Shown: piece by piece, positions 33,001-62,354 of the stretch
Position numbering within the stretch: the stretch's first letter is position 1
Layout: the number at the start of each line of letters is the position of its first letter
Assembly: GCA_951406725.2 (NCBI GenBank)
Contig: OX597815.1
Coordinates: 215,538,708 to 215,602,707 of the forward strand
Reading direction: 5' to 3'
DNA: 64,000 nucleotides
From: Octopus vulgaris
Taxonomy: Eukaryota
The notes under the pieces: generated by a model
Told to the model about the DNA's origin: nothing
Databases searched by the model: none
Seen by the model: only the letters and a program-made list of their open reading frames with translations
Program-made: the position numbers and the translations under genes

Positions 33001-36000
33001 GTTCTGATGTACCTACGGGAGCACCGGACTCTGCACAAGCTACAGACTTACTAGGTATTTACCTTGTTCTGATGTACCTACGGGAGCACCGGACTCTGCA
33101 CAAGCTACAGACTTACTAGGTATTTACCTTGTTCTGATGTACCTACGGGAGCACCGGACTCTGCACAAGCTACAGACTTACTAGGTATTTACCTTGTTCT
33201 GATGTACCTACGGGAGCACCGGACTCTGCACAAGCTACAGACTTACTAGGTATTTACCTTGTTCTGATGTACCTACGGGAGCACCGGACTCTGCACAAGC
33301 TACAGACTTACTAGGTATTTACCTTGTTCTGATGTACCTACGGGAGCACCGGACTCTGCACAAGCTACAGACTTACTAGGTATTTACCTTGTTCTGATGT
33401 ACCTACGGGAGCACCGGACTCTGCACAAGCTACAGACTTACTAGGTATTTACCTTGTTCTGATGTACCTACGGGAGCACCGGACTCTGCACAAGCTACAG
33501 ACTTACTAGGTATTTACCTTGTTCTGATGTACCTACGGGAGCACCGGACTCTGCACAAGCTACAGACTTACTAGGTATTTACCTTGTTCTGATGTACCTA
33601 CGGGAGCACCGGACTCTGCACAAGCTACAGACTTACTAGGTATTTACCTTGTTCTGATGTACCTACGGGAGCACCGGACTCTGCACAAGCTACAGACTTA
33701 CTAGGTATTTACCTTGTTCTGATGTACCTACGGGAGCACCGGACTCTGCACAAGCTACAGACTTACTAGGTATTTACCTTGTTCTGATGTACCTACGGGA
33801 GCACCGGACTCTGCACAAGCTACAGACTTACTAGGTATTTACCTTGTTCTGATGTACCTACGGGAGCACCGGACTCTGCTCAAGGTACAGACTTACTAGG
33901 TATTTACCTTGTTCTGATGTACCTACGGGAGCACCGGACTCTGCACAAGCTACAGACTTACTAGGTATTTACCTTGTTCTGATGTACCTACGGGAGCACC
34001 GGACTCTGCACAAGCTACAGACTTACTAGGTATTTACCTTGTTCTGATGTACCTACGGGAGCACCGGATTCTGCACAAGCTACAGACTTACTAGGTATTT
34101 ACCTTGTTCTGATGTACCTACGGGAGCACCGGACTCTGCACAAGCTACAGACTTACTAGGTATTTACCTTGTTCTGATGTACCTACGGGAGCACCGGACT
34201 CTGCACAAGCTACAGACTTACTAGGTATTTACCTTGTTCTGATGTACCTACGGGAGCACCGGACTCTGCACAAGCTACAGACTTACTAGGTATTTACCTT
34301 GTTCTGATGTACCTACGGGAGCACCGGACTCTGCACAAGCTACAGACTTACTAGGTATTTACCTTGTTCTGATGTACCTACGGGAGCACCGGACTCTGCA
34401 CAAGCTACAGACTTACTAGGTATTTACCTTGTTCTGATGTACCTACGGGAGCACCGGACTCTGCACAAGCTACAGACTTACTAGGTATTTACCTTGTTCT
34501 GATGTACCTACGGGAGCACCGGACTCTGCACAAGCTACAGACTTACTAGGTATTTACCTTGTTCTGATGTACCTACGGGAGCACCGGACTCTGCACAAGC
34601 TACAGACTTACTAGGTATTTACCTTGTTCTGATGTACCTACGGGAGCACCGGACTCTGCACAAGCTACAGACTTACTAGGTATTTACCTTGTTCTGATGT
34701 ACCTACGGGAGCACCGGACTCTGCACAAGCTACAGACTTACTAGGTATTTACCTTGTTCTGATGTACCTACGGGAGCACCGGACTCTGCACAAGCTACAG
34801 ACTTACTAGGTATTTACCTTGTTCTGATGTACCTACGGGAGCACCGGACTCTGCACAAGCTACAGACTTACTAGGTATTTACCTTGTTCTGATGTACCTA
34901 CGGGAGCACCGGACTCTGCACAAGCTACAGACTTACTAGGTATTTACCTTGTTCTGATGTACCTACGGGAGCACCGGACTCTGCACAAGCTACAGACTTA
35001 CTAGGTATTTACCTTGTTCTGATGTACCTACGGGAGCACCGGACTCTGCACAAGCTACAGACTTACTAGGTATTTACCTTGTTCTGATGTACCTACGGGA
35101 GCACCGGACTCTGCACAAGCTACAGACTTACTAGGTATTTACCTTGTTCTGATGTACCTACGGGAGCACCGGACTCTGCACAAGCTACAGACTTACTAGG
35201 TATTTACCTTGTTCTGATGTACCTACGGGAGCACCGGACTCTGCACAAGCTACAGACTTACTAGGTATTTACCTTGTTCTGATGTACCTACGGGAGCACC
35301 GGACTCTGCACAAGCTACAGACTTACTAGGTATTTACCTTGTTCTGATGTACCTACGGGAGCACCGGATTCTGCACAAGCTACAGACTTACTAGGTATTT
35401 ACCTTGTTCTGATGTACCTACGGGAGCACCGGATTCTGCACAAGCTACAGACTTACTAGGTATTTACCTTGTTCTGATGTACCTACGGGAGCACCGGACT
35501 CTGCACAAGCTACAGACTTACTAGGTTTTACCTTGTTCTGATGTACCTACGGGAGCACCGGACTCTGCACAAGCTACAGACTTACTAGGTATTTACCTTG
35601 TTCTGATGTACCTACGGGAGCACCGGACTCTGCACAAGCTACAGACTTACTAGGTATTTACCTTGTTCTGATGTACCTACGGGAGCACCGGACTCTGCAC
35701 AAGCTACAGACTTACTAGGTATTTACCTTGTTCTGATGTACCTACGGGAGCACCGGACTCTGCACAAGCTACAGACTTACTAGGTATTTACCTTGTTCTG
35801 ATGTACCTACGGGAGCACCGGACTCTGCACAAGCTACAGACTTACTAGGTATTTACCTTGTTCTGATGTACCTACGGGAGCACCGGATTCTGCACAAGCT
35901 ACAGACTTACTAGGTATTTACCTTGTTCTGATGTACCTACGGGAGCACCGGATTCTGCACAAGCTACAGACTTATTAGGTATTTACCTTGTTCTGATGTA

Positions 36001-39000
36001 CCTACGGGAGCACCGGAATCTGCACAAGCTACAGACTTACTAGGTATTTACCTTGTTCTGATGTACATACGGGAGCACCGGACTCTGCACAAGCTACAGA
36101 CTTACTAGGTATTTACCTTGTTCTGATGTACCTACGGGAGCACCGGACTCTGCACAAGCTACAGACTTACTAGGTATTTACCTTGTTCTGATGTACCTAC
36201 GGGAGCACCGGAATCTGCACAAGCTACAGACTTACTAGGTATTTACCTTGTTCTGATGTACCTACGGGAGCACCGGATTCTGCACAAGCTACAGACTTAC
36301 TAGGTATTTACCTTGTTCTGATGTACCTACGGGAGCACCGGACTCTGCACAAGCTACAGACTTACTAGGTATTTACCTTGTTCTGATGTACCTACGGGAG
36401 CACCGGAATCTGCACAAGCTACAGACTTACTAGGTATTTACCTTGATCTGATGTACCTACGGGAGCACCGGACTCTGCACAAGCTACAGACTTACTAGGT
36501 ATTTACCTTGTTCTGATGTACCTACGGGAGCACCGGACTCTGCACAAGCTACAGACTTACTAGGTATTTACCTTGTTCTGATGTACCTACGGGAGCACCG
36601 GACTCTGCACAAGCTACAGACTTACTAGGTATTTACCTTGTTCTGATGTACCTACGGGAGCACCGGACTCTGCACAAGCTACAGACTTACTAGGTATTTA
36701 CCTTGTTCTGATGTACCTACGGGAGCACCGGACTCTGCACAAGCTACAGACTTACTAGGTATTTACCTTGTTCTGATGTACCTACGGGAGCAGCGGATTC
36801 TGCACAAGCTACAGACTTACTAGGTATTTACCTTGTTCTGATGTACATACGGGAGCACCGGATTCTGCAGAAGCTATAGACTTACTAGGTATTTACCTTG
36901 TTCTGATGGACCTACTGGAGCACCGGATTCTGCACAAGCTAAAGTCTTACGAGGTATTTACTTTGTTCTGATGTACCTACGGGAGCACCGGACTCTGCAC
37001 AAGCTACAGACTTACTAGGTATTTAACTTGTTCTGATGTACCTACGGGAGCAACGGACTCTGCACAAGCTACAGACTTACTAGGTATTTACCTTGTTCTT
37101 ATGTACCTACGGGAGCACCGGATTCTGCACAAGCTGCAGACTTACTAGGTATTTACCTTGTTTTGATGTACCTACGGGAGCACCGGATTCTGCACAAGCT
37201 ACAGACTTACTAGGTATTTACCTTGTTCTGATGTACCTACGGGAGCACCGGACTCTGCACAAGCTACATACTTACTAGCTATTTACCTTGTTCTGATGTA
37301 CATACGGGAGCACCGGACTCTGCACATGATACTGACTGACTAGGTATTTACCTTGCTCTGATGTACCTACGGGAGCACCGGACTCTGCACAAGATACAGA
37401 CTGTCTAGGTATTTACCTTGCTCTGATGTACCTACGGGAACACCGGATTCTGCACAAGCTACAGACTTACTAGGTATTTACCTTGTTCTGATGTACCTAC
37501 GGGAGCAGCGGATTCTGCACAAGCTACAGACTTACTAGGTATTTACCTTGTTCTGATGTACCTACGTGAGCACCGGATTCTGCACAAGCTACAGACTTAC
37601 TAGGTATTTACCTTGTTCTGATGTACCTACGGGTGCACCGGATTCTGCACAAGCTACAGACTTACTAGGTATTTACCTTGTTCTGATGTACCTACGGGAG
37701 CACCGGACTCTGCACAAGCTACATACTTACTAGGTATTTACCTTGTTCTGATGTACCTACGGGAGCACCGGACTCTGCACAAGATACTGACTTACTAGGT
37801 ATTTAACTTGCTCTGATGTACCTACGGGAGCACCGGACTCTGCACAAGCTACAGACTTACTAGGTATTTACCTTGTTCTGATGTACCTACGGGAGCACCG
37901 GATTCTGCACAAGCTACAGACTTACTAGGTATTTACCTTGTTCTGATGTACCTACGGGAGCACCGGATTCTGCACAAGCTACAGACTTACTAGGTATTTA
38001 CCTTGTTCTGATGTACCTACGAGAGCACCGGATTCTGCACAAGCGAAAGACTTACTAGGTATTTACCTTGTTCTGATGTACCTACGGGAGCACAGGACTC
38101 TGCACAAGCTACAGACTTACTAGGTATTTACCTTGTTCTGATGTACCTACGGGAGCACCGGACTCTGCACAAGCTACAGACTTACTAGTTATATACCTTG
38201 TTCTGATGTACCTACGAGCGCACAAGATTCTGCACAAGCTACAGACTTACTAGGTATTTACCTTGTTCTGATGTACCTACGGGAGCACCGGATTCTGCAC
38301 AAGGTACAGACTTACTAGGTATTTACCTTGTTCTGATGTACCTACGGGAGCACCGGACTCTGCACAAGCTACAGACTTACTAGGTATTTACCTTGTTCTG
38401 ATGTACCTACGGGAGCACCGGTCTCTGCACAAGCTACAGACTTACTAAATATTTACCTTGTTCTGATGTACCTACGGGAGCACCGGATTCTGCACAAGCT
38501 ACAGTCTTACTAGGTATTTACCTTGTTCTGATGTACCTACGGGAGCACCGGATTCTGCACAAGCTACAGACTTACTAGGTATTTACCTTGTTCTGATATG
38601 TACCTACGGGAGCACCGGATTCTGCACAAGCTAAAGACTTACGAGGTATTTACTTTGTTCTGATGTACCTACGGGAGAACCGGACTCTGCACAAGCTACA
38701 GACTTACTAGGTATTTACCTTGTTCTGATGTACCTACGGGAGCACCGGACTCTGCACAAGCTACAGACTTACTAGGTATTTACCTTGTTCTGATGTACCT
38801 ACGTGAGCACCGGATTCTGCACAAGCTGCAGACTTACTAGGTATTTACCTTGTTCTGATGTACCTACGGGAGCACCGGATTCTGCACAAGCTACAGACTT
38901 ACTAGGTATTTACCTTGTTCTGATGTACATACGGGAGCACCGGACTCTGCACAAGCTACAGACTGACTAGGTATTTACCTTTTTCTGATGTACCTACGGG

Positions 39001-42000
39001 AGCACCGGACTCTGCACAAGTACAGACTTACTAGGTATTTACCTTGTTCTGATGTAGCTACGGGAGCACCGGACTCTGCACAAGCTACAGACTTACTAGG
39101 TATTTACCTTGTTCTGATGTACCTACGGGAGCACCGGTCTCTGCACAAGCTACAGACTTACTAGGTGTTTACCTTGTTCTGATGTACCTACGGGAGCACC
39201 GGACTCTGCACAAGGTACAGACTTACTAGGTATTTACCTTGTTCTGATGTACATACGGGAGCACCGGACTCTGCACAAGCTACAGACTTACTAGTTATAT
39301 ACCTTGTTCCGATGTGCCTACGAGCGCACCGGATTCTGCACAATTTAAAGATTTACTAGGTATTTACCTTTTTCTGATGTACCTACGGGAGCACCGGACT
39401 CTGCACAAGGTACAGACTTACTAGGTATTTACCTTGTTCTGACGTACCTACGGGAGCACCGGACTCTGCACAAGCTACAGACTTACTAGGTATTTACCTT
39501 GTTCTGATGTACCTACGGGAGCACCGGTCTCTGCAAAAGCTACAGACTTACTAGGTATTTACCTTGTTCTGATGTACATACGGGAGCACCGGATTCTGCA
39601 CAAGCTATAGACTTACTAGGTATTTACCTTGTTCTGATGGACCTACAGGAGCACCGGATTCTGCACAAGCTAAAGTCTTACGAGGTATTTACTTTGTTCT
39701 GATGTACCTACGGGAGCACCGGACCCTGCACAAGCTACAGACTTACTAGGTATTTAACTTGTTCTGATGTACCTACGGGAGCAACGGACTCTGCACAAGC
39801 TACAGACTTACTAGGTATTTACCTTGTTCTGATGTACCTACGTGAGCACCGGATTCTGCACAAGCTGCAGACTTACTAGGTATTTACCTTGTTTTGATGT
39901 ACCTACGGGAGCAACGGATTCTGCAAAAGCTACAGACTTACTAGGTATTTACCTTGTTCTGATGTACCTACGGGAGCACCGGACTCTGCACAAGCTACAT
40001 ACTTACTAGCTATTTACCTTGTTCTGATGTACATCCGGAGCACCGGACTCTGCACAAGCTACAGACTTACTAGGTATTTACCTTGTTCTGATGTACCTAC
40101 GGGAGCACCGGACTCTGCACATGATACTGACTGACTAGGTATTTACCTTGCTCTGATGTACCTACGGGAGCACCGGACTCTGCACAAGATACAGACTGTC
40201 TAGGTATTTATCTTGCTCTGATGTACCTACGGGAACACCGGATTCTGCACAAGCTACAGACTTACTAGGTATTTACCTTGTTCTGATGTACCTACGGGAG
40301 CAGCGGATTCTGCACAAGCTACAGACTTACTAGGTATTTACCTTGTTCTGATGTACCTACGAGAGCACCGGATTCTGCACAAGCGAAAGACTTACTAGGT
40401 ATTTATCTTTTTCTGATGTACCTACGGGTGCACCGGACTCTGCACAAGGTACAGACTTACTAGGTATTTACCTTGTTCTGATGTACATACGGGAGCACCG
40501 GACTCTGCACAAGCTACAGACTTACTAGTTATATACCTTGTTCTGATGTGCCTACGAGCGCACCGGATTCTGCACAATTTAAAGACTTACTAGGTATTTA
40601 CCTTTTTCTGATGTACCTACGGGAGCACCGGACTCTGCACAAGGTACAGACTTACTAGGTATTTACCTTGTTCTGATGTACCTACGGGAGCACCGGACTC
40701 TGCACAAGCTACAGACTTACTAGGTATTTACCTTGTTCTGATGTACCTACGGGAGCACCGGTCTCTGCATAAGCTACAGACTTACTAGGTATTTACCTTG
40801 TTCTGATGTACCTACGGGAGCACCGGTCTCTGCACAAGCTACATACTTACTAAAAATTTACCTTGTTTTGATGTACCTACGGGAGCACCGGATTCTGCAC
40901 AAGCTACAGACTTACTAGGTATTTACCTTGTTCTGATGTACCTTCGGGAGCACCGGACTCTGCACAAGCTACATACTTACTAGCTATTTACCTTGTTCTG
41001 ATGTACATACGGGAGCACCGGACTCTGCACAAGCTACAGACTGACTAGGTATTTACCTTGTTCTGATGTACCTACGGGAGCACCGGACTCTGCACATGAT
41101 ACTGACTGACTAGGTATTTACCTTGCTCTGATGTACCTACGGGAGCACCGGACTCTGCACAAGATACAGACTGACTAGGTATTTACCTTGCTCTGATGTA
41201 CCTACGGGAACACCGGATTCTGCACAAGCTACAGACTTACTAGGTATTTACCTTGTTCTGATGTACCTACGGGAGCAGCGGATTCTGCACAAGCTACAGA
41301 CTTACTAGGTATTTACCATGTTCTGATGTACCTACGAGAGCACCGGATTCTGCACAAGCTAAAGACTTACTAGGTATTTACCTTTTTCTGATGTACCTAC
41401 GGGAGCACCGGACTCTGCACAAGGTACAGACTTACTAGGTATTTACCTTGTTCTGATGTACATACGGGAGCACCGGACTCTGCACAAGCTACAGACTTAC
41501 TAGGTATATACCTTGTTCTGATGTGCCTACGAGCGCACCGGATTCTGCACAATTTAAAGACTTACTAGGTATTTACCTTTTTCTGATGTACCTACGGGAG
41601 CACCGGACTCTGCACAAGGTACAGACTTACTAGGTATTTACCTTGTTCTGATGTACCTACGGGAGCAGCGGATTCTGCACAAGCTACAGACTTACTAGGT
41701 ATTTACCTTGTTCTGATGTACCTACGGGAGCACCGGACTCTGCACAAGCTACAGACTGACTAGGTATTTACCTTTCTCTGATGTACCTACGGGAGCACCG
41801 GACTCTGCACAAGCTACAGACTGACTAGGTATTTACCTTGTTCTGATGTACTGACGGGAGCACCGGACTCTGCACAAGCTACAGACTTACTAGGTATTTA
41901 CCTTGTACTGATGTACCTACGGGAGCACCGGATTCTGCACAAGCTACAGACGTACTAGGTATTTACCTTTTTCTGATGTACCTACGGGAGCACCGGATTC

Positions 42001-45000
42001 TGCACAAGCTACAGACCTACTAGGTATATACCCTGTTCTGTTGTACCTACGGGAGCACCGGATTCTGCACAAGCTACAGACTTACTAGGTATTTACCTTG
42101 TTCTGATGTACATACGGGAGCACCGGATTCTGCACAAGCTATAGACTTACTAGGTATTTACCTTGTTCTGATGGACCTACAGGAGCACCGGATTCTGCAC
42201 AAGCTAAAGTCTTACGAGGTATTTACTTTGTTCTGATGTACCTACGGGAGAACCGGACTCTGCACAAGCTACAGACTTACTAGGTATTTAACTTGTTCTG
42301 ATGTACCTACGGGAGCACCGGACTCTGCACAAGCTACAGACTTACTAGGTATTTACCTTGTTCTGATGTACCTACGGGAGGACGGACTCTGCACACGCTA
42401 CAGACTTACTAGGTATTTACCTTGTTCTGATGTACATACGGGAGCACCGGACTCTGCACAAGATACAGACTGACTAGGTATTTACCTTGCTCTGATGTAC
42501 CTACGGGAGCACCGGAATCTGCACAAGCTACAGACTGATTAGGTATTTACCGTGCTCTGATGTACCTACGGGAGCACCGGACTCTGCACAAGCTACAGAC
42601 TTACTAGGTATTTACCTTGTTCTGATGTACCTACGGGAGCACCGGATTCTGCACAAGCTACAGACTTACTAGGTATTTACCTTTTCCTGATGTTACGACG
42701 GGAGCACCGGACTCTGAACAAGCTACAGACTTACTAGGTATTTACCTTGTTCTGATGTACCTACGGGAGCACCGGACTCTGCACAAGCTACAGACTTACT
42801 AGGTATTTACCTTGTTCTGATGTACATACGGGAGCACCGGACTCTGCACAAGATACAGACTGACTAGGTATTTACCTTGCTCTGATGTACCTACGGGAGC
42901 ACCGGACTCTGCACAAGCTACAGACTGACTAGGTATTTACCTTGCTCTGATGTACCTACGGGAGCACCGGACTCTGCACAAGCTACAGACTGACTAGGTA
43001 TTTACCTTGCTCTGATGTACATACGGGAGCACCGGACTCTGCACAAGCTACAGACTTACTAGGTATTTACCTTGTTCTGATGTACCTACGGGAGCACCGG
43101 ATTCTGCACAAGCTACAGACTTACTAGGTATTTACCTTTTCCTGATGTAACTACGGGAGCACCGGACTCTGAACAAGCTACAGACTTACTAGTTATTTAC
43201 CTTATGCTGGTGTACATACGGGTGCACCGGACTCTGCACAAGCTACAGACTTACTAGTTATTTACCTTGTTCTGATGTACCTACGGGAGCACCGGACTCT
43301 GCACAAGCTACAGACTGACTAGGTATTTATCTTGTTCTGATGTACCTACGGGAGCACCGGATTCTGCACATGCTACAGACTTACTAGGTATTTACCTTGT
43401 GCTGATGTACCTACGGGAGCACCGGATTCTGCACAAGCTACAGACTTACTAGGTATTTACCTTGTTCTGATGTACCTACGGGAACACCGGAGTCTGCACA
43501 AGCTACAGACTGACTAGGTATTTACATTGTTCTGATGTACATACGGGAGCACCGGACTCTGCACAAGCTACAGACTTACTAGGTATTTACCTTGTTCTGG
43601 TGTACCTACGGGAGCACCGGATTCTGCACAAGCTACAGACTTACTAGGTATTTACCTTGTTCTGATGTACCTACGGGAGCACCAGATTCTGCACAAGCTA
43701 CAGACTTACTAGGTATTTACCTTGTTCTTATGTACCTACGGGAGCACCGGACTCTGCACAAGCTACAGACTTACTAGGTATTTACCTTGTTCTGATGTAC
43801 TTACGGGAGCACCGGACTCTGCACAAGCTACAGACTTACTAGGTATTTGCCTTGTTCTGATGTACATATGGGAGCACCGGACTCTGCACAAGATACAGAC
43901 TGACTAGGTATTTACCTTGTTCTAATGTACCTACGGGAGCACCGGACTCTGCACATGATACACACTGACTAGGTTTTTACATTGCTCTGATGTACCTACG
44001 GGAGCACCGGACTCTGCACAAGCAACCGACTGACTAGGTATTTACCTTGCTCTGATGTACATACGGGAGCACCGGACTCTGCACAAGCTACAGACTTACT
44101 AGGTATTTACCTTGTTCTGATGTACATACGGGAGCACCGGATTCTGCACAAGCTTCAGACTTACTAGGTATTTACCTTTTTCTGATGTACTTACGGGAGC
44201 ACCGGACTCTGCACAAGCTACAGACTTAATAGGTATATACCTTGTTCTGATGTACCTATGTGAGCACTGGTCTCTGCACAAGCTACAGACTTACTAGGTA
44301 TTTACCTTGTTCTGATGTACCTATGGGGGCACCGGACTCTGCACAAGCTACAGACTGACTAGGTATTTACATTGTTCTGATGTACCTACGGGAGCACCGG
44401 TCTCTGCACAAGCTACAGACTTACTAGGTATTTTCCTTGTTCTGATGTACCTACGGGAGTACCGGTCTCTGCACAATCTACAGACTTACTAGGTATTTAC
44501 CTTGTTGTGATGTACCTACGGGAGCACCGGATTCTGCACAAGCTAAAGACTTACTAGTTATTTACCCTGTTCTGATGTACCTACGGGAGCAGCGGATTCT
44601 GCACAAGCTACAGACTTACTAGGTATTTACCTTGTTCTGATGTACATACGGGAGCACCGGATTCTGCACAAGCTACAGACTTACTAGGTATTTAACTTGT
44701 TCTAATGTACCTACGGGAGCACCGGATTCTGCACAAGCTAAAGACTTACGAGGTATTTACCTTGTTCTGATGTACCTACGGGTGCAGCGGATTCTGCACA
44801 AGCTACAGACTTACTAGGTATTTACCTTGTTCTGATGTACCTACGGGAGCACCGGATTCTGCACAAGCTAAAGACTTACTAGCTATTTACTTTTTCTGAT
44901 GTACCTATGGGAGCACCGGACTCTGTACAAGGTACAGACTTACTAGGTATTTACCTTGTTCTGATGTACCTACGGGAGCACCGGACTCTGCACAAGCTAC

Positions 45001-45317
45001 AGACTTACAAGTTATATACCTTGTTCTGATGTACCTACGAGAGCACTGGTCTCTGCACAAGCTACAGACTTACTAGGTATTTACCTTGTTCTGATGTACC
45101 TATGGGGGCACCGGACTCTGCACAAGCTACAGACTTACAAGGTATTTACCTTGTTCTGATGTACCTACGGGAGCACCGGTCTCGGCACAAGCTACAGACT
45201 TACTAGGTATTTACCTTGTTCTGATGTACCTACGGGAGCACCGGTCTCTGCACAAGCTACAGACTTACTAGGTATTTACCTTGTTCTGATGTACCTACGG
45301 GAGCACCGGATTCTGCA
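1..45317. repeat. 65-bp tandem satellite array (~700 monomers; runs off the left edge of the window)
   Basis: Head-to-tail unit ACTTACTAGGTATTTACCTTGTTCTGATGTACCTACGGGAGCACCGGA(C/T)TCTGCACAAGCTACAG, period 65. Near-invariant to ~35.9 kb, increasingly substituted from ~36 kb; the last unit breaks off at ...GGATTCTGCA (45317). Confidence 0.99.
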
Positions 45318-48300
45318 GAGATCGAGAAAATGACTTAGCGGACTGCTAAACGAGATGAAAATATGACTTAGCGGACCACCAAACGAGATCGATAAAATGA
45401 TTTAATGGACCGCCAAACGAGATCGATAAAATGACTGAGCGGACCGCCAATCGAGACGGATAAAATGAACTAGCTGGCCGCCAAACGAGATCGATAAAAT
45501 GATTTAATGGACCGCCAAACGAGATCTATAAAATGACTGCACGGACCGCCAATCGAGACAGATAAAATGACCTAGCGGGCCGCCAAAGGAGATCGATAAA
45601 ATAAATTAGCAGATGACGGAACGAGATCTATAAAATGACTTAGTGGACCGCTAAACGAGATCGACAAAATGACCTAGCGGACCGCCAAAATTGATCGATA
45701 AAATGAATTAGCGGACCGCCAAACGAGATCGAGAAAATGACTTAGCGGACCGCCAATCGAGACGGATAAAATGACCTAGCGGAAAGCCAAACGAGATCGA
45801 TAATATGACATAGTGGACCACCAAAGAAGATCGATAGAATGACTTAGTGGACCACAAAACGACATCGATAAAATGACTTTGCGGACCACGAAACGTTATC
45901 GATAAAATGACTTAGCGGAGCGCTAAACGAGATCGATAAAATGACCTAGCGGACCGCTAATTGAGATGGATAAACTGACCTAGCGGGCCGCCAAACGAGA
46001 TCGATAAAATGACTTAGCACACGACGTAAGGAGATCGATAAAATGACCCTAGCGGACCACCAAACAAGATCGATAAAATGACTTAGCGGACCACTAAACG
46101 AGATCGATAAAATGACTTAGCGGACCGCCAATCGTGACGGATAGAATGACCTAGCGGACTGCCAAACGAGATCGATAAAATGACCTAGTGGACCGCCAAA
46201 AGAGATCGATAAAATGACCGAGCGGACCATGAAACGAGATCGATAAAATGAATTAGCGGACCAATAAACGACATCGATAAAATGACTTAGCGGACCACCA
46301 AACAAGATCGATAGAATGACTTAGTGGACCACAAAACGACATCGATAAAATGACTTTGCGGACCACGAAACGTTATCGATAAAATGACTTAGCGGAGCGC
46401 TAAACGAGTTCGATAAAATGACCGAGTGGACCGCCAAACGAGTTCGATAAAATGACTTAGCGGACCGCTTAACGAGATCAAAAAATGACTTAGCGGACCA
46501 CCAAACGACATCGATAAAATGATTTAGTGGACCGCCAAACGAGATCGATAAAATGACTTAGCGGACCGCTAATTGAGACGGATAAAATGACCTAGCGGGC
46601 CCCCAAACGAGATCGATAAAATGACTTAGCACACGACGAAAGGAGATCGATAAAATGACCCGGGCGGACCACCAAACAAGATCGATAAAATGACTTAGCG
46701 GACCACTAAACAAGATCGATAAAATGACTTAGCGGACCGCCAATCGTGATGGATAAAATGACCTAGCGGACTGCCAAACGAGATCGATAAAATGACCTAG
46801 TGGACCGCCAAAAGAGATCGATAAAATGACCGAGCGGACCACCGAACGAGATCGATAAAATGAATTAGCGGACCAATAAACGACATCGATAAAATGACTT
46901 AGCGGACCACCAAACGACATCGATAAAATGATTTAGCGGACCAATAAACGACATCGATAAAATTACTTAGCGGACCACCAAACGAGATCAAAAAAATGAC
47001 CTAGCAGACCGCCAAAAAAGATCGATAAAATGAGTTAGCGGACAGCCAAACGAGATCGATAAAATGACATAGCAGACCGACAATCGAGACGGATACAATG
47101 ACCTAGCGGACGGCCAAACGAGATCGATAAAATGACTTAGCGGACCGCTAATTGAGACGGATAAAATGACCTAGCGGGCCGCCAAACGAGATCGATAAAA
47201 TGACTTAGCACACGACGAAAGGAGATCGATAAAATGACCCTAGCGGACCACCAAACAAGATCGATAAAATGACTTAGCGGACCACTAAACGAGATCGATA
47301 AAATGGCTTAGCGGACCGCCAATCGTGACGGATAAAATGACCTAGCGGACTGCCAAACGAGATCGATAAAATGACCTAGTGGACCGCCAAAAGCGATCGA
47401 TAAAATAACCGAGCGGACCATGAAACGAGATCGGTAAAATGAAATAGCGGACCACCACACAAGATCGATAGAATGACTTAGTGGACCACAAAACGACATC
47501 GATAAAAAGACTTTGCGGACCACGAAACGTTATCGATAAAATGACTTAGCGGACCGCTAAACGAGATCGATAAATTGACCGAGTGGACCGCCAAACGAGT
47601 TCGATAAAATGACTTAGCGGACCGCTAAACGAGATCAAAAAATGACTTAGCGGACCACCAAACGACATCGATAAAATGATTTAGTGGACCGCCAAACGAG
47701 ATTGATAAAATGACTTAGCGGACCGCTAATTGAGACGGATAAAATGACCTAGCGGGCCGCCAAACGAGATCGATAAAATGACGTAGCACACGACGAAAGG
47801 AGATCGATAAAATGACACTAGCGGACCACCAAACAAGATCGATAAAATGACTTAGCGGACCACTAAACGAGATCGATAAAATGACTTGGGGGAACGCCAA
47901 TCGTGACGGATAAAATGACCTAGCGGACCAATAAACGACATCGATAAAATGACTTAGCGGACCACCAAACGAGATCGATAAAATGATTTAGCGGACCGCT
48001 AATTGAGACGGACAAATTGACCTAGCGGGCCGCCAAACGAGATCGATAAAATGACTTAGCGGACCACCAAACGAGATCAACAAAATGACCTAGCAGACCG
48101 CCAAAAGAGATCGATAAAATGAGTTAGCGGACAGCCAAACGAGATCGATAAAATGACTTAGCGGACCGACAATCGAGACGGATAAAATGACCTAGCGGAC
48201 CGCCAAACGAGATCGATAAAATGACATAGCGGACCACCAAACGAGATCGATAAAATGAGTTAGCAGACAGCCAAACGAGATCGATAAAATGACTTAGCAG

Positions 48301-51300
48301 ACCGACAATCGAGACGGATACAATGACCTAGCGGACCGCCAAACGAGATCGATAAAATGACATAGCGGACCACCAAACGAGATCGATAAAATGAATTAGC
48401 GGACTACCAAACGAGATCGTTAAAATGACATAGTGGACCGCTAAACGAGATCAACAAAATGACCTAGCAGACCGCCAAAAGAGATCGATAAAATGAATTA
48501 GCGGACCAGCAAACGAGATCGATAAAATGACTTAGCACACGACGAAAGGAGATCGATAAAATGACTTAGCGGACCACTAAACGAGATCGATAAAATGACT
48601 TAGCGGACCGCGAATCGTGACGGATAAAATGACCTAGCGGACAGCCAAACGAGATCGATAGAATGACTTAGTGGAACGCCAAAAGATATCGACAAAATGA
48701 CTGATCGGACCACCAAACGAGATCGATAAAATGAATTAGCAGACCAATAAACGAGATCGATAAAATGACATTAGCGAACTGCTAAACATGATCGACAAAA
48801 TGAATGAGTGGACCGCCAAACGAGATCGATAAAATGAGCAAGTGGACCGCCAAACGAGATCGATAAAATGACAGCGGACCGCCAAACGAGATCGATAAAA
48901 TGATTTAGTGGACCAATAAACGAGATCGATAAAATGACATTAGCGGAACGCTAAACGTGATCGACAAAATGACTGAGCGAACCGCCAAACGAGATCGATA
49001 AAATGACCTAGTGGACCGCCAAACGAGATCGATAAAATGACTTGGCGGACCGCCAATCGAGACGGATAAAATGACCTAGCGGACCACCAAACTTGATCGA
49101 TAAAATGACATAGTGGACCACCAAACGAGTTCGATAAAATGAATTAGCGGACCACGAATCGAGGTCGATAAAATGACTTAGTGGACCGCAAAACGAGATC
49201 GATAAAATGACCGAGGGGACCGCCCAACGAGATCGATAAAATGACTTAGCGGACCGCTAAACGAGATCAAAATATGACCTAGCGGACCACCAAACGAGAT
49301 CGATAAAATGATTTAATGGACCGCCAAACGAGATCGATAAAATGACTGAGCGGATCGCCAATCGAGACGGATAAAATGAACTAGCGGGCCGCCAAACGAG
49401 ATCGATAAAATGATTTAATGGACCGCCAAACGAGATCGATTAAATGACTGAGCGGACCGCCAATCGAGACGGATAAAATGACCTAGCGGGCCGCCAAACG
49501 AGATCGATAAAATAACTTAGCAGATGACGGAACGAGATCGATAAAATTGACTTAGCGGACCACTAAACGAGATCGATAAAATGACTTAGCGCACCACCAA
49601 ACGCGATTGATAAAATGAAATAGCGGAACGCTAAACGAGATCGACTAAATGACCTAGCGGACCGCCAAAACAGATCGATAAAATGAGTTAGTGGACAGCC
49701 AAACGAGATCGATAAAATGACTGAGCGGACCGACAATCGCGACGGATAAAATGATCGATAAAATGAATTAGCCGACCACCATACGAGATCGATAAAATGA
49801 ATTAGCGGACCAATAAACGAGATCGATAAAATGACATTAGCGGACCGCTAAACGTGATCGACAAAATGACTGAGCGGACCGCCAAACGAGATCGATAAAA
49901 TTACAGCGGACCGCCAAGCGAGATCGATAAAATGACTTACTGGACCGCGAAATGAGATCGATAAAATGACTTATCGGACCGCCAATCGAGGCGGATAAAA
50001 TGACCTAGCGGACCGCCAAACGAAATCGATAAAATGACATAGCGGACCACTAAACGAGATCGATAAAAAGAATTAGCGGACCACCAAACGAGATCGATAA
50101 AATGACTTAGTGGACCGAAAAACGAGATCGATAAAATGACTTAGCGGACCACGAAACGTTATCGATAAAATGACTTAGCGGACCACCAAAAGAGATCGAT
50201 AAAATGAATTAGTGGACCGCCAAACTAGATCGATAAAATGATTTAGCAGACGACGAAACGAGATCAATAAAATGACTTAGCGGACCACCAAACGAGATCG
50301 ATAAAATGACTGAGCGGACCACCAAACGAGATCGATAAAACGATTTAGCGGACCGCTAAACGAGATCGACAAAATGACAGAGCGAACCGCCAAAAGAGAT
50401 CGATAAAATGAATTAGCGGACCGCCAAACGAGATCGATTAAATGACTTAGCGGACCGCCGATCGAGACGGATAAAATGACCTAGTGGACTGCCAAACGAG
50501 ATCGATAAAATGACATAGCGGACCACCAAATGAGATCGATAAAATGAATTAGCGCACCACCAAACGAGATCGATAAAATGACATTAGCGGACCGCTAAAC
50601 GTGATCGACAAAATGACTGAGCGGACCGCCAAACGAGATCGATAAAATGAGCAAGTGGACCGCCAAACGAGATCGATAAAATGACAGCGGACCGCCAAAC
50701 GAGATCGATAAAATGACTTAGTGGACTGTTAAACGAGATTGATAAAATGACTTATCGGACCGCCAATCGAGACGGATAAAATGACCTAGCGGACCGCCAA
50801 ACGAAATCGATAAAATGACATAGCGGACCACCAAACGAGATCGATAAAAAGAGTTAGCGGACCACCAAACGAGATCGATAAAATGACTTAGTGGACCGCA
50901 AAACGAGATCGATAAAATGACTTAGCGGACCACGAAACGTTATCGATAAAATGACTTAGCGGACCGCTAAACGGGATCGATAAAATGACCGAGTGGACCG
51001 CCAAACGAGATCGATAAAATGAATTAGCGGACCAATAAAATAAAATGAATTAGCGGACCAATAAAGTAAAATGATATAGCGGACCGCCTAACGTGATCGA
51101 CAAAATGATCCAGCGGACCGCCAAACAAGATCGATAAAATGACTTAGTGGACCCCCAAACGAGATCGATAAAATGACTTAGCGGACCGCCAATCGTGACG
51201 GATAAAATGACCTAGCGGACCGCCAAACGATATCGATAAAATGACCTAGTGGACCGCCAAAAGAGATCGATAAAATGATCGAGCGGACCACCAAACGAGA

Positions 51301-53022
51301 TCGATAAAATGAAAATAGCGGACCAATAAACGAGATCGATAAAATGACTTAGCGGACCGCTAAACGAGATCGACAAAATGACTGAGCGGACCACCAAACG
51401 AGATCGATTTATGACCAAGTGGACCACCAAACGAGATCGATAAAATTACAGCGGACCGCCAAACGAGATCGATAAAATGACTTAGCGGACCGCCAAACGA
51501 GATCGATAAAATGACTTAGCGGACCACGAAACATTATCGACAAAATGACATAGCGGAGCGCTAAATGAGATCAATAAAATGACCGACTGGACGGACAAAC
51601 GAGATCGATACAATGACTTAGTGGACTGCCATAAGAGATCGATAAAATGACCGAGCGGACCACCAAACGAGATCGATTAAATGAAGTAGTGGACCAATAA
51701 ACGAGATCAATAAAATGAATTAGCGGACCGCTAAACAAGATCGACAAAATAACTGAGCGGACCACCAAACGAGATCGATAATATGACCAAGTGGACCACC
51801 AAACGAGATCGATAAAATGACAGCGGACCGCCAAACAAGATCGATAAAATGACCTAGTGGACCACCAAACAAGATCGATAAAATGACTTAGCGGACCACC
51901 AAACGAGATCGATAAAATGATTTAGCGGACCGCTAAACGAGATCAACAAAATGAGCTAGCAGACCGCCAAAAGAGATCGATAAAATGAATTAGCGGACCA
52001 ATAAACGAGATCGATAAAATGACATTAGCGGACCGCTAAACGTGAGTGACAAAATGACTGAGCGAACCGCCAAACGAGATCGATAAAATGACCTAGTGGA
52101 CCGCCAAACGAGATCGATAAAATGACTTAGCGGACCGCCAATCGAGACGGATAAAATGACCTAGGGGACCGCCAAACGAGATCGATAAAATGATTTAGCG
52201 GACCGCTAAACGAGATCAACAAAATGAACTAGCAGACCGCCAAAAGAGATCGATAAAATGAATTAGCGGGGCACCAAACGAGATCGATAAAATGAATTAG
52301 CGGACCACCAGACGAAATCGATAAAATGACTTAGTGGACCGCAAAACGAGATCGATAAAATGACTTAGCGGACCACGAAACGTTATCGATAAAATGACTT
52401 AGCGGACCGCTAAACGAGATCGATAAAATGACCGAGTGGATCGCCAAACGAGATCGATAAAATGAATTAGCGGACCGCTAAACGAGATCAAAATATGACT
52501 TAGCGGACCACCAAACGAGATCGATAAAATGATTTAATGGACCGCCAAACGAGATCGATAAAATGACTGAGCGGACCGCCAATCGAGACGGATAAAATGA
52601 TCTAGCGGGCCGCCAAACGAGATCGATAAAATAACTTAGCAGATGACGGAACGAGATCGATAAAATGACTTAGCGGACCACCAAACGAGATCGATAAAAT
52701 TGACTTAGCGGACCACTAAACGAGATCGATAAAATGACTTAGCGCACCACCAAACGAGATCTATAAAATGACCTTAGCGGACCGCTAAACGAGATCGACA
52801 AAATGAACTAGCGGACCGCCAAAAGAGATCTATGAAATGAGTTAGCGGACAGCCAAACGAGATCGATAAAATGACTTAGCGGACCGACAATCGAGACGGA
52901 TAAAATGACCTAGCAGACCGCCAAACGAGATCGATAAAATGATATAGCGGACCACCAAACGAGATCGATAAAATGAATTAGCGGACCACCAAACGAGATC
53001 GATAAAATGAGTTAGCGGACAG

Positions 53023-53026
<4 letters not shown>
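45318..53026. repeat. 34-bp tandem satellite/minisatellite array (~227 diverged monomers, higher-order structure)
   Basis: Consensus ACTTAGCGGACCGCCAAACGAGATCGATAAAATG; period 34 (e.g. 45421 to 45455); recurring variant monomers. Confidence 0.98.

Positions 53027-53105
<79 letters not shown>
53026..53105. repeat. (TA)n microsatellite, ~40 units
   Basis: Pure AT dinucleotide run between the 34-bp array and the LINE. Confidence 0.98.
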
Positions 53106-53109
<4 letters not shown>

Positions 53110-54195
53110 ACGTACACAGAAGAATTCAATGTAGAGGTTGGGGTCCACCAGGGTTCAGTACTCAGCCCCCTCCTATTTATCATAGTCCTCCAGGCAATAA
53201 CGGAGGAATTCAAGACAGGTTGTCCCTGGGAGCTCCTCTACGCTGACGACCTTGCTCTAATTGCTGAGTCACTATCAGAACTGGAGGAGAAGTTCCAGGT
53301 GTGGAAGGTGGGTTTAGAATCGAGGGGCCTTAGAGTCAACCTAGCTAAAACCAAAGTCCTAATAAGTAGGAAGGCACGCAAACCACAAATCCCTTCAGGT
53401 AGATGGCTCTGCTCGATCTGTAGTAGAGGCGTCGGTAGAAGCTCTATAAGATGTACCCAGTGTAAGCTATGGACACATAAGAGGTGCAGCAATGTCAAAG
53501 GTAGGCTAACTGGGAAGATAGTTTTTGTATGTGGCAGATGCTCGGGAGCATTAACCTCCGAAAATCTGCAGAAAACAACTTCCGTGACTTTCGAGGGGGA
53601 AAAACTAGAAGTAGGTGATAGCTTCCATTATCTAGGTGACCAAGTCAGTAGTGGGGGTGGGTGCGCTGAAAGTGTAACTGCTAGAATAAGAATAGCCTGG
53701 GCAAAGTTTAGGGAGCTCTTACCTCTGCTGGTGACTAAAGGCCTCTCGCAAAGAATAAAAGGCAGACTGTATGATGCATGTGTACGAACAGCCATGCTAC
53801 ATGGCAGTGAAACATGGGCCGTGACTGCTGAGGACATGCGTAAGCTCGCGAGGAATGAAGCCAGTATGCTCCGATGGATGTGTAATGTCTGTGTACATAC
53901 TCGACAGAGCGTTAGTACCTTGAGAGAAATGTTGTACCTAAGAAGCATCAGTTGTGGTGTGCAAGAGAGACGATTGCGCTGGTATGGTCATGTGGCGAGA
54001 ATGGATGAAGATAGGTGTGTGAGAAAGTGCCAATCCCTAGCAGTTGAGGGAACCCGTGGAAGAGGTAGACCCAGGAAAACCTGGGACGAGGTAGTGAAGC
54101 ACGACCTTCGAACTTTAGGCCTCACTGAGGAAATGACCAGCGACCAAGACCTTTGGAAATATGCTGTACGTGAGAAGACCAGGCAGGACAAGTGA
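53104..54195 (+). pseudogene. Truncated RTE reverse transcriptase ORF (C-terminal ~360 aa, no stops); N-terminal RT and endonuclease missing
   Basis: Motifs GVHQGSVLSPLLF, LLYADDLAL (YADD at 53239-53250), GLRVNLAKTKVL, FHYLG, RRLRWYGHVARM, RGRGRPRKTW. The initiating ATG lies in the flanking microsatellite/TSD, so it is not the native start. Confidence 0.93.
53410..53541 (+). other. PHD-type zinc finger (C4HC3) encoded inside the RT ORF
   Basis: CSIC-x10-CTQC-x4-H-x2-C-x14-CGRC, with W two residues before the His and F two residues before the last Cys pair. Confidence 0.8.
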
Positions 54196-54282
54196 GCCCA
54201 GCCCACTTATGAATGCCTTTCCTCCCTTGGACACAAAGACCTGTTGAGGCAAGCGAAGTCGATATAGAACCTCATCCGACAA

Positions 54283-55054
54283 CAGGCACCCATGCCAACC
54301 CCCCTTGCTTGCGAAGACATGTTGGGGCAAGCGAAAGCGAAATCGAAATCGAATTGAACCAGCCAGGATCCCTGGTCTGGTGGTACGTAAAAGCACTATC
54401 CGACTCGTGGCCGATGCCAGCGCCACCTCCACTGGCTTCCGTGACGGTGGCACGTAAAATACACCAATCCGACCGTACGACAGGCACCCATGCCAACCCC
54501 CTTTGCTTGCGAAGACATGTTGAGGCAAGCGAAATCGAAATCGAATTGAACCAGCCAGGATCCCTGGTCTGGTGGTACGTAAAAAGCAATATCAGACTCG
54601 TGGCCGATGCCAGCACCGCATCGACTGGCTTCCGTGCCGGTGGCACATAAAATACACCAATCCGACCGTACGACAGGCACCCATGCCAACCCCCTTTGCT
54701 TGCGAAGACATGTTGGGGCAAGCGAAATCGAAATCGAATTGAACCAGCCAGGATCCCTGGTCTGGTGGTACGTAAAAAGCAATATCAGACTCGTGGCCGA
54801 TGCCAGCGCCGCCTCCACTGGCTTCCGTGCCGGTGGCACGTAAAATACATCAATCCGACCGTACGACAGGCACCCATGCCAACCCCCTTTGCTTGCGAAG
54901 ACATGTTGGGGCAAGCGAAATCGAAATCGAATTGAACCAGCCAGGATCCCTGGTCTGGTGGTACGTAAAAGCACTATCCGACTCGTGGCCGATGCCAGCA
55001 CCGCATCGACTGGCTTCCGTGCCGGTGGCACATAAAATACACCAATCCGACCGT
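54283..55054 (+). repeat. Four tandem ~193-bp units in the LINE 3' UTR
   Basis: CAGGCACCCATGCCAACCCCC begins at 54283, 54481, 54674 and 54867 (spacings 198, 193, 193). Confidence 0.95.
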
Positions 55055-55268
55055 GGCCGTTGCCAGCCTCGCCTGGCACCTGTGCAGGTGGCACGTAAAA
55101 AGCACCCACTACACTCACGGAGTGGTTGGCGTTAGGAAGGGCATCCAGCTGTAGAAACATTGCCAGATAAGACTGGAGCCCGGTGCAGCCTTCTGGCTTC
55201 CCAGATCCCCGGTCGAACCGTCCAACCCATGCTAGCATGGAGAACGGACGTTAAACGATGATGATGAT

Positions 55269-55310
55269 ATATATATATATATGTATACATATATATATAT
55301 ATATATATGT

Positions 55311-55366
<56 letters not shown>
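55269..55366. repeat. Compound (AT)n microsatellite with GTATAC interruptions
   Basis: Direct reading; its start forms the right copy of the LINE TSD. Confidence 0.95.
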
Positions 55367-55370
<4 letters not shown>

Positions 55371-55530
55371 AGGAGTGGCTGTGTGGTAAGTAGCTTGCTA
55401 ACCAACCACATGGTTCCGGGTTCAGTCCCACTGCGTGGCATCTTGGGCAAGTGTCTTCTGCTATAGCCCCGGGCCGACCAATGCCTTGTGAGTGGATTTG
55501 GTAGACGGAAACTGAAAGAAGCCTGTCGTG

Positions 55531-55566
<36 letters not shown>

Positions 55567-55787
55567 CGTTTGTGTGTCTGTGTTTGTCCCCCTAGCATTG
55601 CTTAACAACCGATGCTGGTGTGTTTACGTCCCCGTCACTTAGCGGTTCGGCAAAAGAGACTGATAGAATAAGTACTGGGCTTACAAAAGAATAAGTACCG
55701 GGGTCGAGTTGCTCGATTAAAGGTGGTGCTCCAGCATGGCCGCAGTCAAATGACTGAAACAAGTAAAAGAGAGTAAGAGTAAAAAGA

Positions 55788-55790
<3 letters not shown>
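55367..55790 (+). mobile_element. Full-length bipartite tRNA-derived SINE with internal (TA)n(TG)n tract (resembles octopus OR-type/CORE-like SINEs)
   Basis: A-box-like TGGCTGTGTGG (55376-55386); B-box-like GGTTCAGTCCC (55419-55429); TTGGGCAAGT after the head; internal microsatellite 55529-55566; 3' half ending in a GAGTAA(A)-type tail. Homologous copies occur elsewhere in the window. The family name is from recall, not a search. Confidence 0.85.
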
Positions 55791-57269: not shown

Positions 57270-57415
57270 CTCTTTTTTGCTGGATCACCGACTTTAGTCG
57301 AGCAAATCGACCCCAGGACTTATTCTTTGTAAGCCTAGTACTTATTCTATCGGTCTCTTTTGCCGTAAACACAGCATCGGTTGCCAAGCGGTGTTTGGGG
57401 GGGGGGGCAAACATA
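57270..57415 (-). mobile_element. SINE 3'-half fragment
   Basis: TTTAGTCGAGCAAATCGACCCCAGGACTTATTCTTTGTAAGCCTAGTACTTATTCTATCGGTCTCTTTTGCCG is the reverse-complement homologue of 55648-55720. Confidence 0.85.
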
Positions 57416-57502
57416 TACATACACACACTCACATATATATATATATATATATATAGGTTAATATAGGGCGTAACAAATATCAGAAAATCAAAAAAAAAAT
57501 GT

Positions 57503-57980
57503 GTGTAATAGGTGTAAAACAACTTCCTATGAACGAATATGAAAAAAAAAATTCGCGCACGCGAAAGGGGGTGGGGGAGAGGCCTCGGAAAATTCACATC
57601 GGGAAGTTCCGAAAGCGTCTGAGGAGCTGACCCGGGCACCAAAACAAAAAAAAAATAGTGTAATATGTGTAAAACAACTTGCTCTAAACGAATATGACAA
57701 AAAAAAATGCGCTCTCGCGAAAGAGGGGTGGGGGAGAGGCCTCGGAATATTTATATCGGGAATTTCCGAAAGCGTCTGAACCGGGCACAAAAACAAAAAC
57801 AAAAACAGCGTAATAGGTGTAAAACAACTTGCTCTAAACGACTATCATGAAAAAAATGCGCGCTCGCGAAAGGGGGGTGGGGGAGAGGCTTCGGAAATTT
57901 CACATCTTCAGTCCACGGCCTTTAAACTAAGAAAAAATAGTGTTATTGGTGTAAAACTACTTGTTCTAAACGAGTATCAA
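57503..57980. repeat. ~150-bp minisatellite, three copies plus a partial fourth
   Basis: GTGTAATAGGTGTAAAACAACTT...CGCGAAAGGGGGTGGGGGAGAGGCCTCGGAA units start at 57503, 57658, 57808 and 57940. Confidence 0.85.
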
Positions 57981-58903: not shown

Positions 58904-58905
58904 GA

Positions 58906-59032: not shown

Positions 59033-59059
59033 AATACATGTATGTATATATATATATTT

Positions 59060-59824: not shown

Positions 59825-59959
59825 ATATGTGTGTGTTGTGCTCACCCACAAACACACATACCTCCGAACACGCACACATAGATACATGCAAAGATACACA
59901 CTTGTTGCTATTTATGCTTTAAATATGTTGACCATAAAACCGTTACGTTCTGAAGAAAT

Positions 59960-60440: not shown

Positions 60441-60792
60441 ACAATTACTACTACAACAAACACTTTGACCATTTCTAAGATACCCACATTTGAGATCACT
60501 AACTACTAAATCAAAATAAGTTCAATTTATTACACCTTTAGTGACTTCAGATATTGCTCATATTTTTCTCATATGGCGACAATGTATTAACTTCACAAGT
60601 GGATAAAACAACTTCTCATACTGGCGTGGAGGGGGCTGAGATTATAACTGCGAGTGCCAAGCACCCAATGCCTCCCCCGTATCTACATACCTGGATCGGC
60701 CGTAATTGGTCTCATTCTGAGATCTCTCGGGAGTAGAATATTTATGACTATAGAAGTTAACTTGTTACAGGCTTCGTAGACTTTTGTCGCTA

Positions 60793-61208
60793 TTTACTCT
60801 TTTATTCTCATTTACTTGTTTCAGTCATTTGATTGTGGCCATGCTGGAGCACCAACTTTAGTCGAACATATCGACCCCAGGACTTATTCTTTGTAGGCCT
60901 AGTACTTATTCTATCAGTCTCTTTCGCTGAACCTCTTAGTTACGGGGACGTAAACAGACTAGCATCAGTTGTGAAGCAATGTTTGAGGACAAACACAGAC
61001 ACAAACCCACAAACATACACACACACATATATATAAACATATATACGACAGTCTTCTTTCAGTTTCCGTCTACCAACTCGACTCAGAAGTATTTGATTGG
61101 CCCGAGGCTATATTTGAATACACTTGCCGAAGGTGCCACACTGTGGGACTGAACCCAGCACATTGCGATTCGTAAGCAAACTGTTTATCACACGGCCACT
61201 CCTACGCC
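60793..61208 (-). mobile_element. Full-length bipartite SINE copy (minus strand)
   Basis: Reverse complement of the 55367-55790 layout: tail TTTACTCTTT, 3' half, internal CA/TA tract, TTCAGTTTCCGTCTACCAA, GGGACTGAACC (B box), CACACGGCCACTCCTACGCC (head). Confidence 0.85.
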
Positions 61209-62353: not shown

Positions 62354-62354
62354 G

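What the first reader, a model, noticed from the sequence alone, without database searches (positions are those of the whole stretch)
45318..55669. 34-bp satellite monomer appears to be an amplified internal segment of the neighbouring SINE
Seen: satellite consensus ACTTAGCGGACCGCCAAACGAGATCGATAAAAT aligns without gaps to SINE positions 55637-55669 (ACTTAGCGGTTCGGCAAAAGAGACTGATAGAAT) at 26/33 identities in the same orientation. Minor satellite variants restore SINE bases at several mismatches (CAAAAGAGA, GAGAC, GATAGAAT, e.g. near 45831 and 46197). Other SINE copies carry GAGACCGAT, closer still. If the TSD-bounded LINE is removed, the array, a (TA)n tract and this SINE are directly adjacent. 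Inference: the satellite arose by tandem amplification of a SINE body segment, as is known for other TE-derived satellites. The changes TTCGG->ACCGC created a palindrome that the SINE lacks.
Basis: partly seen in the sequence, partly recalled or inferred. Interest (0 to 1): 0.8.

Follow-up and report, generated by a model that had tools for sequence, protein, structure and literature searches.

The report
Octopus satellite from a SINE fragment
A 7.7-kb array of a 34-base repeat in what is likely an octopus genome matches one internal 34-base piece of a very abundant short mobile element (SINE) far better than chance, so it likely grew from that element family, though not demonstrably from the copy next door; this kind of satellite origin is already known from reptiles and a limpet.

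Summary
The core observation holds. The array at 45318-53026 has 226 full 34-bp monomers. Its consensus matches SINE bases 55635-55668 without gaps at 26/34, and the family-majority SINE at 27/34; 0 of 50,000 shuffles reached 26. (1) Minor variants do not restore SINE bases beyond chance: 56 of 119 variant cells against 45 expected, and no monomer is closer than the consensus. (2) Adjacency says little: SINE pieces fill 20% of the flank, and the neighbour is an intact, single-segment copy that matches worse than the family majority. (3) The palindrome gain is real but not significant (p about 0.07-0.15). No SINE arms flank the array, and no intermediate was seen. Best reading (0.7): an old SINE-family-derived satellite, seeded elsewhere by duplication between the short near-repeats TAACT and TAAGT, which lie 34 bp apart, then homogenised and spread. 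One lead: contigs from 3 of 4 runs join the SINE tail back to the same left breakpoint. This is a new member of a known kind; my searches found no cephalopod case.

The parts
45318..53026 (+). 34-bp satellite array: 226 full monomers, 167 distinct, with block duplications of 5-9 monomers and no regular higher-order period
51478..51511 (+). the one monomer identical to the array consensus
1..45317 (+). 65-bp satellite (about 697 copies) abutting the 34-bp array; unrelated to the SINE and to the 34-bp unit
53027..53111 (.). (TA)n tract ending in the left copy of the 22-bp target-site repeat (53090-53111)
53112..55266 (+). 5'-truncated LINE: C-terminal RT and PHD-like ORF to 54195, 3' UTR with four 193-bp tandem copies, (GAT)n tail; 84% identical over 265 aa to an Octopus bimaculoides RT protein
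55267..55288 (.). right copy of the 22-bp target-site repeat (low complexity), inside a TA-rich tract that runs to 55366
55367..55790 (+). full-length SINE copy: Pol III A-box-like 55376-55386 and B-box-like 55419-55429 (1 mismatch each), central (TA)n(TG)n, 3' body, A-rich GAGTAA tail
55635..55668 (+). SINE body segment homologous to the monomer (26/34; family majority 27/34); begins with TAACT in the family majority and is followed by TAAGT at 55669-55673
60790..61207 (-). second full-length SINE copy (82% to the first); eight more partial copies lie at 57278-63846

Best explanation
The 34-bp satellite matches one internal 34-base segment of an abundant octopus-type SINE family at 27 of 34 bases, and it likely arose when that segment was tandemly duplicated in some copy of the family (probably not the copy next door) and was then amplified and homogenised into a free-standing satellite. 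Shown: the match, its significance, the family's abundance, the absence of SINE arms on this array, and the near-repeat TAACT...TAAGT spaced exactly one period apart in the SINE. Inferred: slippage or unequal exchange at that near-repeat made the first dimer. Seven substitutions were then fixed in the seed by concerted evolution, three of them (positions 12, 13, 16) possibly in one quasi-palindrome template switch. The array later spread to satellite-rich chromatin beside the 65-bp satellite, and the LINE and SINE to its right are independent insertions into a (TA)n tract. No function is shown; it most likely behaves as ordinary, partly methylated heterochromatic satellite.
For: 27/34 ungapped against the family-majority SINE; 0 of 50,000 shuffles reached 26 (maximum 25). 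Gapped local scores beat 5,000 of 5,000 shuffles under both scoring schemes and for both targets. The analytic upper bound for >=27/34 is 1e-6 per SINE and 0.005 for an assumed 2-Mb repeat library. The match covers a whole period and falls off on either side (27 at registers 0 to +3, 22 at -6, 25 at +6). The monomer does not match the LINE, the 149-bp repeat or the 65-bp unit, and the 65-bp unit does not match the SINE. The family is very abundant: 112,037-265,714 contigs were laid on 201 bases in each of 4 runs. All 8 aligned copies overlap the segment once, at 74% mean pairwise identity, against 89% for monomers to their consensus, which fits an older SINE. A 5-mer match of 4/5 at offset 34 occurs at 8 of 300 SINE starts (2.7%; 7.7% with +-2 register). 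6 of the 12 joints shown in table 5c run from the SINE tail back to 55637 or 55640, the left edge of the unit, in 3 of 4 runs.
Against: Only 34 bases at 79% identity carry the argument, and about 6 such matches are expected by chance in 2.5 Gb of random DNA (upper bound). No SINE arm flanks either end of the array. No monomer is closer to the SINE than the consensus, and variants are at chance level. No 34-bp-back joint is among the 15 of 742 and 12 of 511 joint rows shown, and none of the 40 of 165 variant rows shown has a satellite base at the seven differing sites (tables cut, so not proof of absence). The genome's other repeat families could not be searched. The microhomology (p 0.03-0.08) and the template switch (p 0.07) are only suggestive.
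Confidence: 0.7

Rival explanations
1. The source is an older or sister SINE family or subfamily that shares this body module and already carried some of the satellite's bases; the SINE seen here is a cousin, not the parent.
For: Seven fixed differences with no relic monomers. SINEs swap modules between families (PMC4758252, passages). That octopuses have several tRNA-derived SINE families is recalled; only OR1 was seen named.
Against: No second family in the 11-kb flank matches better: best local score 14 outside the adjacent copy against 19 for it. No variant row shown (40 of 165) carries a satellite base at the differing sites.
Confidence: 0.12
2. Chance resemblance: the satellite arose from unrelated DNA and happens to match the SINE.
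For: Short unit, no flanking SINE arms, no intermediates, comparison chosen after the fact; 1 of 6,000 shuffles reached 26 against the 11-kb flank.
Against: 0 of 50,000 shuffles reached 26 against the SINE. The bound is 0.005 even for a 2-Mb library. The match improves when the family majority replaces the single copy (26 to 27).
Confidence: 0.1
3. Reverse direction: the SINE master captured one monomer of a pre-existing satellite.
For: Sequence identity has no direction.
Against: The segment is single-copy and collinear in all 8 aligned SINE copies, which are more diverged from one another (74%) than monomers are from their consensus (89%); homogenisation weakens this argument.
Confidence: 0.05

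Closest known systems
SINE-derived satellites (sSat1-3) of squamate reptiles (Vassetzky, Kosushkin, Ryskov 2023, PMC10702118; read: abstract, background, start of results, passages, whole discussion)
   Same: Head-to-tail array of a sub-SINE segment, hundreds of units, from a high-copy tRNA-type SINE; homogenised away from the parent.
   Different: Their units are about 70-290 nt, here 34. Most of theirs keep an extended terminal unit that runs to a SINE end; this array has none, which they report only for minor variants. Here the link rests on statistics, not on retained SINE arms.
PcH-sat of the limpet Patella caerulea (Petraccioli et al. 2024, PMC11121367; abstract and passages)
   Same: Molluscan satellite whose monomer matches part of a SINE (118 bp at 84.6% to Lottia Nin-SINE).
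   Different: 179-bp AT-rich unit only partly SINE-like, with FISH-mapped pericentromeric location; here a 34-bp unit wholly SINE-like, in a cephalopod, location untested.
Alu- and B1-derived minisatellites of human and mouse (as tabulated in the review PMC9659126; passages and table; primary papers not seen)
   Same: Short unit taken from inside a SINE; origin between short direct repeats is the usual model (recalled, not read here).
   Different: Those are mostly locus-bound arrays still inside their SINE (recalled); this one is 7.7 kb, detached from SINE arms and abuts another satellite.
Octopus tRNA-derived SINEs such as OR1, a CORE-SINE (named in PMC4824008, passages)
   Same: Pol III box-like head followed by a TTGGGCAAG motif that by eye resembles the CORE start in the bivalve CORE-SINE alignments (supplement passages).
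   Different: No OR1 sequence was available (0 hits in the supplements searched; file 1 of each was not searchable), so the family name is not established.

Membership tests
SINE-derived satellite (sSat sense) | [quoted passage not shown] | tested here: met
   226 full monomers
SINE-derived satellite (sSat sense) | Unit similar to a portion of a SINE and shorter than it | tested here: met
   27/34, 0 of 50,000 shuffles reached 26
SINE-derived satellite (sSat sense) | Parent is a real, high-copy dispersed SINE family in the same genome | tested here: met
   10 copies or pieces in 11 kb; over 100,000 contigs in each of 4 runs; Pol III box-like motifs
SINE-derived satellite (sSat sense) | Extended terminal unit running to a SINE end (usual, not universal, per PMC10702118) | tested here: not met
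   Left end joins the 65-bp satellite directly, right end joins (TA)n. The paper allows minor variants without such ends, so this lowers but does not exclude membership.
SINE-derived satellite (sSat sense) | Short intermediate arrays inside SINE copies elsewhere in the genome | tested here: inconclusive
   No genome held; joint tables cut to 15 of 742 and 12 of 511 rows, none 34 bp back; collection scans found no match even for the plain segment
SINE-derived satellite (sSat sense) | Subtelomeric or heterochromatic location | not testable with these tools
   Only hint: it abuts a 65-bp satellite block of at least 45 kb
tRNA-derived SINE | Head with Pol III A and B boxes, tRNA-like | tested here: inconclusive
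   A and B boxes with 1 mismatch each against recalled consensus patterns, correctly spaced; ARAGORN found 0 tRNAs, Rfam gave no tRNA hit at E<=5, fold z -0.42
CORE-SINE / octopus OR1 | About 60-bp CORE domain behind the head; identity to the OR1 consensus | tested here: inconclusive
   Short motif resemblance by eye only; no alignment computed and no OR1 sequence seen
Non-LTR retrotransposon (RTE-like LINE) | RT ORF, 5' truncation, simple-repeat tail, target-site duplication | tested here: met
   RVT_1 E 2e-13; full-length relatives are endonuclease-RT-PHD proteins of about 1,050 aa; repeat abuts both ends. The RTE clade label is recalled, no tree built.

The most novel reading that the evidence does not exclude
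The TAAC site of this octopus SINE is a recurrent duplication breakpoint that has seeded more than one tandem family: the 34-bp satellite and a roughly 138-bp tail-to-body unit seen as joints in three runs. The 34-bp unit was then remodelled in one quasi-palindrome template switch (its bases 12-19 equal the reverse complement of SINE bases 5-12 at 7 of 8, and the perfect 7-bp-arm palindrome is present 19 times) before spreading as a satellite shared by several octopus species. That would give a cephalopod series from intact SINE through dimer to mature satellite, with a sequence-level trigger.
Probability: 0.2. Interest if true: 0.55.

Novelty: new member of a known kind. Interest (0 to 1): 0.3.

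Why it matters
Well-supported SINE-to-satellite cases are few: the reptile paper calls the earlier examples inconclusive, and molluscs have one limpet case in my searches. A cephalopod example with a very short unit, fully detached from its parent and 21% diverged, would extend the route to a new class. It would also show the late stage, where the parent is recognisable only statistically. It does not reveal a new mechanism or function. If the shared breakpoint holds up, it would make 'why do some SINE segments seed satellites' testable in octopus assemblies.

Tried and rejected
Relic ancestral monomers: rejected. Gradient of SINE likeness along the array: none. Palindrome gain as a signal: 15% of 2,187 base choices at the same sites and 17-34% of 20,000 random 7-site changes do as well; the template-switch tract test gives 7.4%. 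A hairpin defining the segment: the single-copy RNA centroid pairs ACUUA with UAAGU around the unit, but z is +1.17 and the 8-copy consensus has no structure there; not used as evidence. The 65-bp satellite as SINE- or LINE-derived, or related to the 34-bp unit: no (the 14-point score against the far flank was matched by 16 of 200 shuffles). Regular higher-order repeat: none at lags 1-59. Collection scans for a tandem junction with SINE letters (metagenome) and for the shared segment (viral, genome, metagenome) gave 0; these collections evidently lack this animal's DNA, so the blanks say nothing. LINE relatives in viral contigs: none. Rfam gave only microsatellite artefacts. No RNA holder was listed for the satellite, which is no evidence on expression; 5 runs with share under 0.2 were not counted. 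Literature: 10 searches found no cephalopod SINE-derived satellite and no description of this repeat. The octopus genome paper was not held, and the primary octopus SINE papers and Repbase/Dfam were not available, so prior annotation cannot be excluded. Look-ups of earlier scan findings by place and by sequence were empty.
Full report
Setting. Bases 1-45317 are a 65-bp satellite, 45318-53026 a 34-bp satellite, and the remaining 11 kb is microsatellite-rich DNA with a LINE and many SINE pieces. The LINE's ORF has an RT domain, and its best hit among 634 longer proteins is an Octopus bimaculoides protein at 84% (next best 53%), so the genome is likely an octopus. No whole genome was held.

The match. 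Wrap-around alignment gave 226 full monomers, 89% identical to their consensus on average. Against the 424-bp SINE copy, 0 of 5,000 mono- and 0 of 5,000 dinucleotide shuffles reached 25. Against the whole 10,974-bp flank, 1 of 6,000 reached 26. Laying contigs of four public runs on 55575-55775 showed that about 75% of depth has C at 55661 in every run, so the family majority matches at 27/34. There, 0 of 50,000 shuffles reached 26, and gapped scores beat 5,000 of 5,000 shuffles in all four tests. An analytic upper bound puts >=27/34 at 1e-6 per SINE, 0.005 per assumed 2-Mb repeat library and about 6 per 2.5 Gb. So the match is significant because the target is the dominant dispersed repeat; a hit of this size in unique DNA would not be. 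The LINE, the 149-bp repeat and the 65-bp unit give no match.

The supporting claims. At the 7 sites that differ from the family majority, SINE bases are 56 of 119 variant cells; 45 are expected from the array's own mutation spectrum, and 17% of 2,187 random base choices do as well. Four of the seven are transitions. Five monomers carry two SINE bases against 4.4 expected, and none carries three. The C26 variant travels with T20 and G27 in 23 of 24 monomers, two further differences from the SINE. No monomer exceeds 27/34, and GCGGT never occurs.

Adjacency. The LINE boundaries are sound: protein homology starts at 53113 and a 22-bp direct repeat abuts both ends, although that word occurs 7 times in the window. 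Removing the LINE leaves array, 163 bp of TA-rich tract, then the SINE head. But SINE pieces cover 2,165 of 10,974 flank bases, and 112,037-265,714 contigs per run lie on 201 SINE bases (this is not a copy number). The neighbour is intact, holds the segment once and carries the minority T. Neither array end shows SINE arms, and there is no gradient of SINE likeness along the array. The family, not this copy, is the candidate parent.

Palindrome. GCGG-N-CCGC occurs 61 times and the perfect TTAGCGG-N-CCGCTAA 19 times; the SINE segment lacks it but has other short inverted repeats. Random changes give as much self-complementarity in 15-34% of cases. One detail is worth keeping: satellite bases 12-19 equal the reverse complement of SINE bases 5-12 at 7 of 8, so one template switch would explain three of the seven differences; 7.4% of random choices do as well. 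This is a lead only.

How the unit could have been cut out. In the family majority the segment begins TAACT and is followed by TAAGT exactly 34 bases on; 8 of 300 SINE starts are that good (2.7%; 7.7% with register freedom). In one search, 6 of the 12 rows shown of table 5c (511 in all) join the SINE's 3' tail (55762-55772) back to 55637 or 55640, in runs X1, X8 and X12. So tandem or nested SINE pieces that begin at the unit's left edge exist in 3 of 4 runs, probably through the GTAA shared by tail and site (inference; they may all be one inherited family). No joint 34 bases back is among the 15 of 742 and 12 of 511 rows shown, and none of the 40 of 165 variant rows shown has a satellite base at the differing sites; the tables are cut.

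Spread and age. Words of the array were held at share >=0.2 by 14 of 24 listed runs, from 7 studies and 4 organism labels. SINE copies in the window average 74% pairwise identity, which fits a SINE older than the last homogenisation of the array. The array shows CpG decay (first CpG: TG 45 and CA 19 of 226; second: CA 78, TG 8), in line with the report that octopus satellites are more methylated than transposons (PMC9476566, passages). It grew by irregular block duplications of 5-9 monomers with no fixed higher-order period.

Mechanism, with status. Shown: homology-level match, family abundance, no flanking arms, near-repeat at one period. Inferred (0.7 overall): duplication inside some SINE copy, fixation of seven changes in the seed, amplification and transfer to a satellite-rich region, later independent LINE and SINE insertions in the (TA)n tract. 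Rivals: a sister or older SINE as the true source (0.12), chance (0.10), capture of a monomer by the SINE (0.05), growth in situ from the neighbour (0.03).

Comparison. It works like the squamate sSats (PMC10702118; abstract, background, start of results, passages and discussion read) and meets their array, similarity and parent criteria. It fails the usual extended terminal unit, and its unit is shorter than their 70-290 nt. A limpet satellite from a Nin-SINE is the molluscan precedent (PMC11121367; abstract and passages); Alu- and B1-derived minisatellites are listed in PMC9659126 (passages and table). The SINE's family name is open. OR1 is named as an octopus CORE-SINE in PMC4824008 (passages), and a short motif resembles bivalve CORE alignments by eye, but no octopus sequence was found in the supplements searched. 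File 1 of both SINE papers could not be searched and may bear on this. PMC4758252 and PMC9115989 were seen as passages only. Ten searches found no cephalopod case. An unchecked scan note from another genome (e1-7814136) describes a 33-bp satellite still flanked by its SINE halves; it shows what the missing evidence would look like and is not support.

Verdict.

Noticed in passing
window 55637-55772 (table 5c): Contigs in runs X1, X8 and X12 run from the SINE tail back to 55637 or 55640: a candidate SINE-derived tandem unit or dimer of about 138 bp that shares its left breakpoint with the 34-bp unit.
   Followed up: partly
window 1-45317: 65-bp satellite of at least 45 kb, 475 exact copies of the consensus. 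It is very homogeneous to about 36 kb (13-mer share 0.94-0.98), then decays to 0.53-0.70 towards the 34-bp array, like the diverged edge of an actively homogenised, possibly centromeric block.
   Followed up: partly
window 45317/45318: The two satellites join directly, with no spacer and no evident microhomology.
   Followed up: partly
window 54282-55054: Four 193-bp tandem copies (94% alike) inside the LINE 3' UTR: a second case of tandem amplification within a retroelement at this locus.
   Followed up: no
window 53112-54195: The truncated LINE ORF is free of stops over about 360 codons and has a PHD-like finger behind the RT (just under Pfam's cut-off), which suggests a young insertion.
   Followed up: partly
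window 58907-59249 and 63467-63846: Pairs of partial SINE copies lie head-to-tail (two 3' halves; two 5' halves), so local SINE doubling is common here.
   Followed up: no
window 57484-57906 and 58037-58075 / 58790-58900: A 149-bp repeat in 2.8 copies; bases near 57930-58035 reappear inverted at about 58805-58900, suggesting a non-autonomous DNA element with terminal inverted repeats (seen by eye).
   Followed up: no
window 60013-60560 and 61570-62060: Two similar TG-rich blocks followed by the same downstream sequence, each next to a SINE: a probable 1.4-2 kb local duplication (seen by eye; SINE copies at 60790 and 62755 share diagnostic bases).
   Followed up: no
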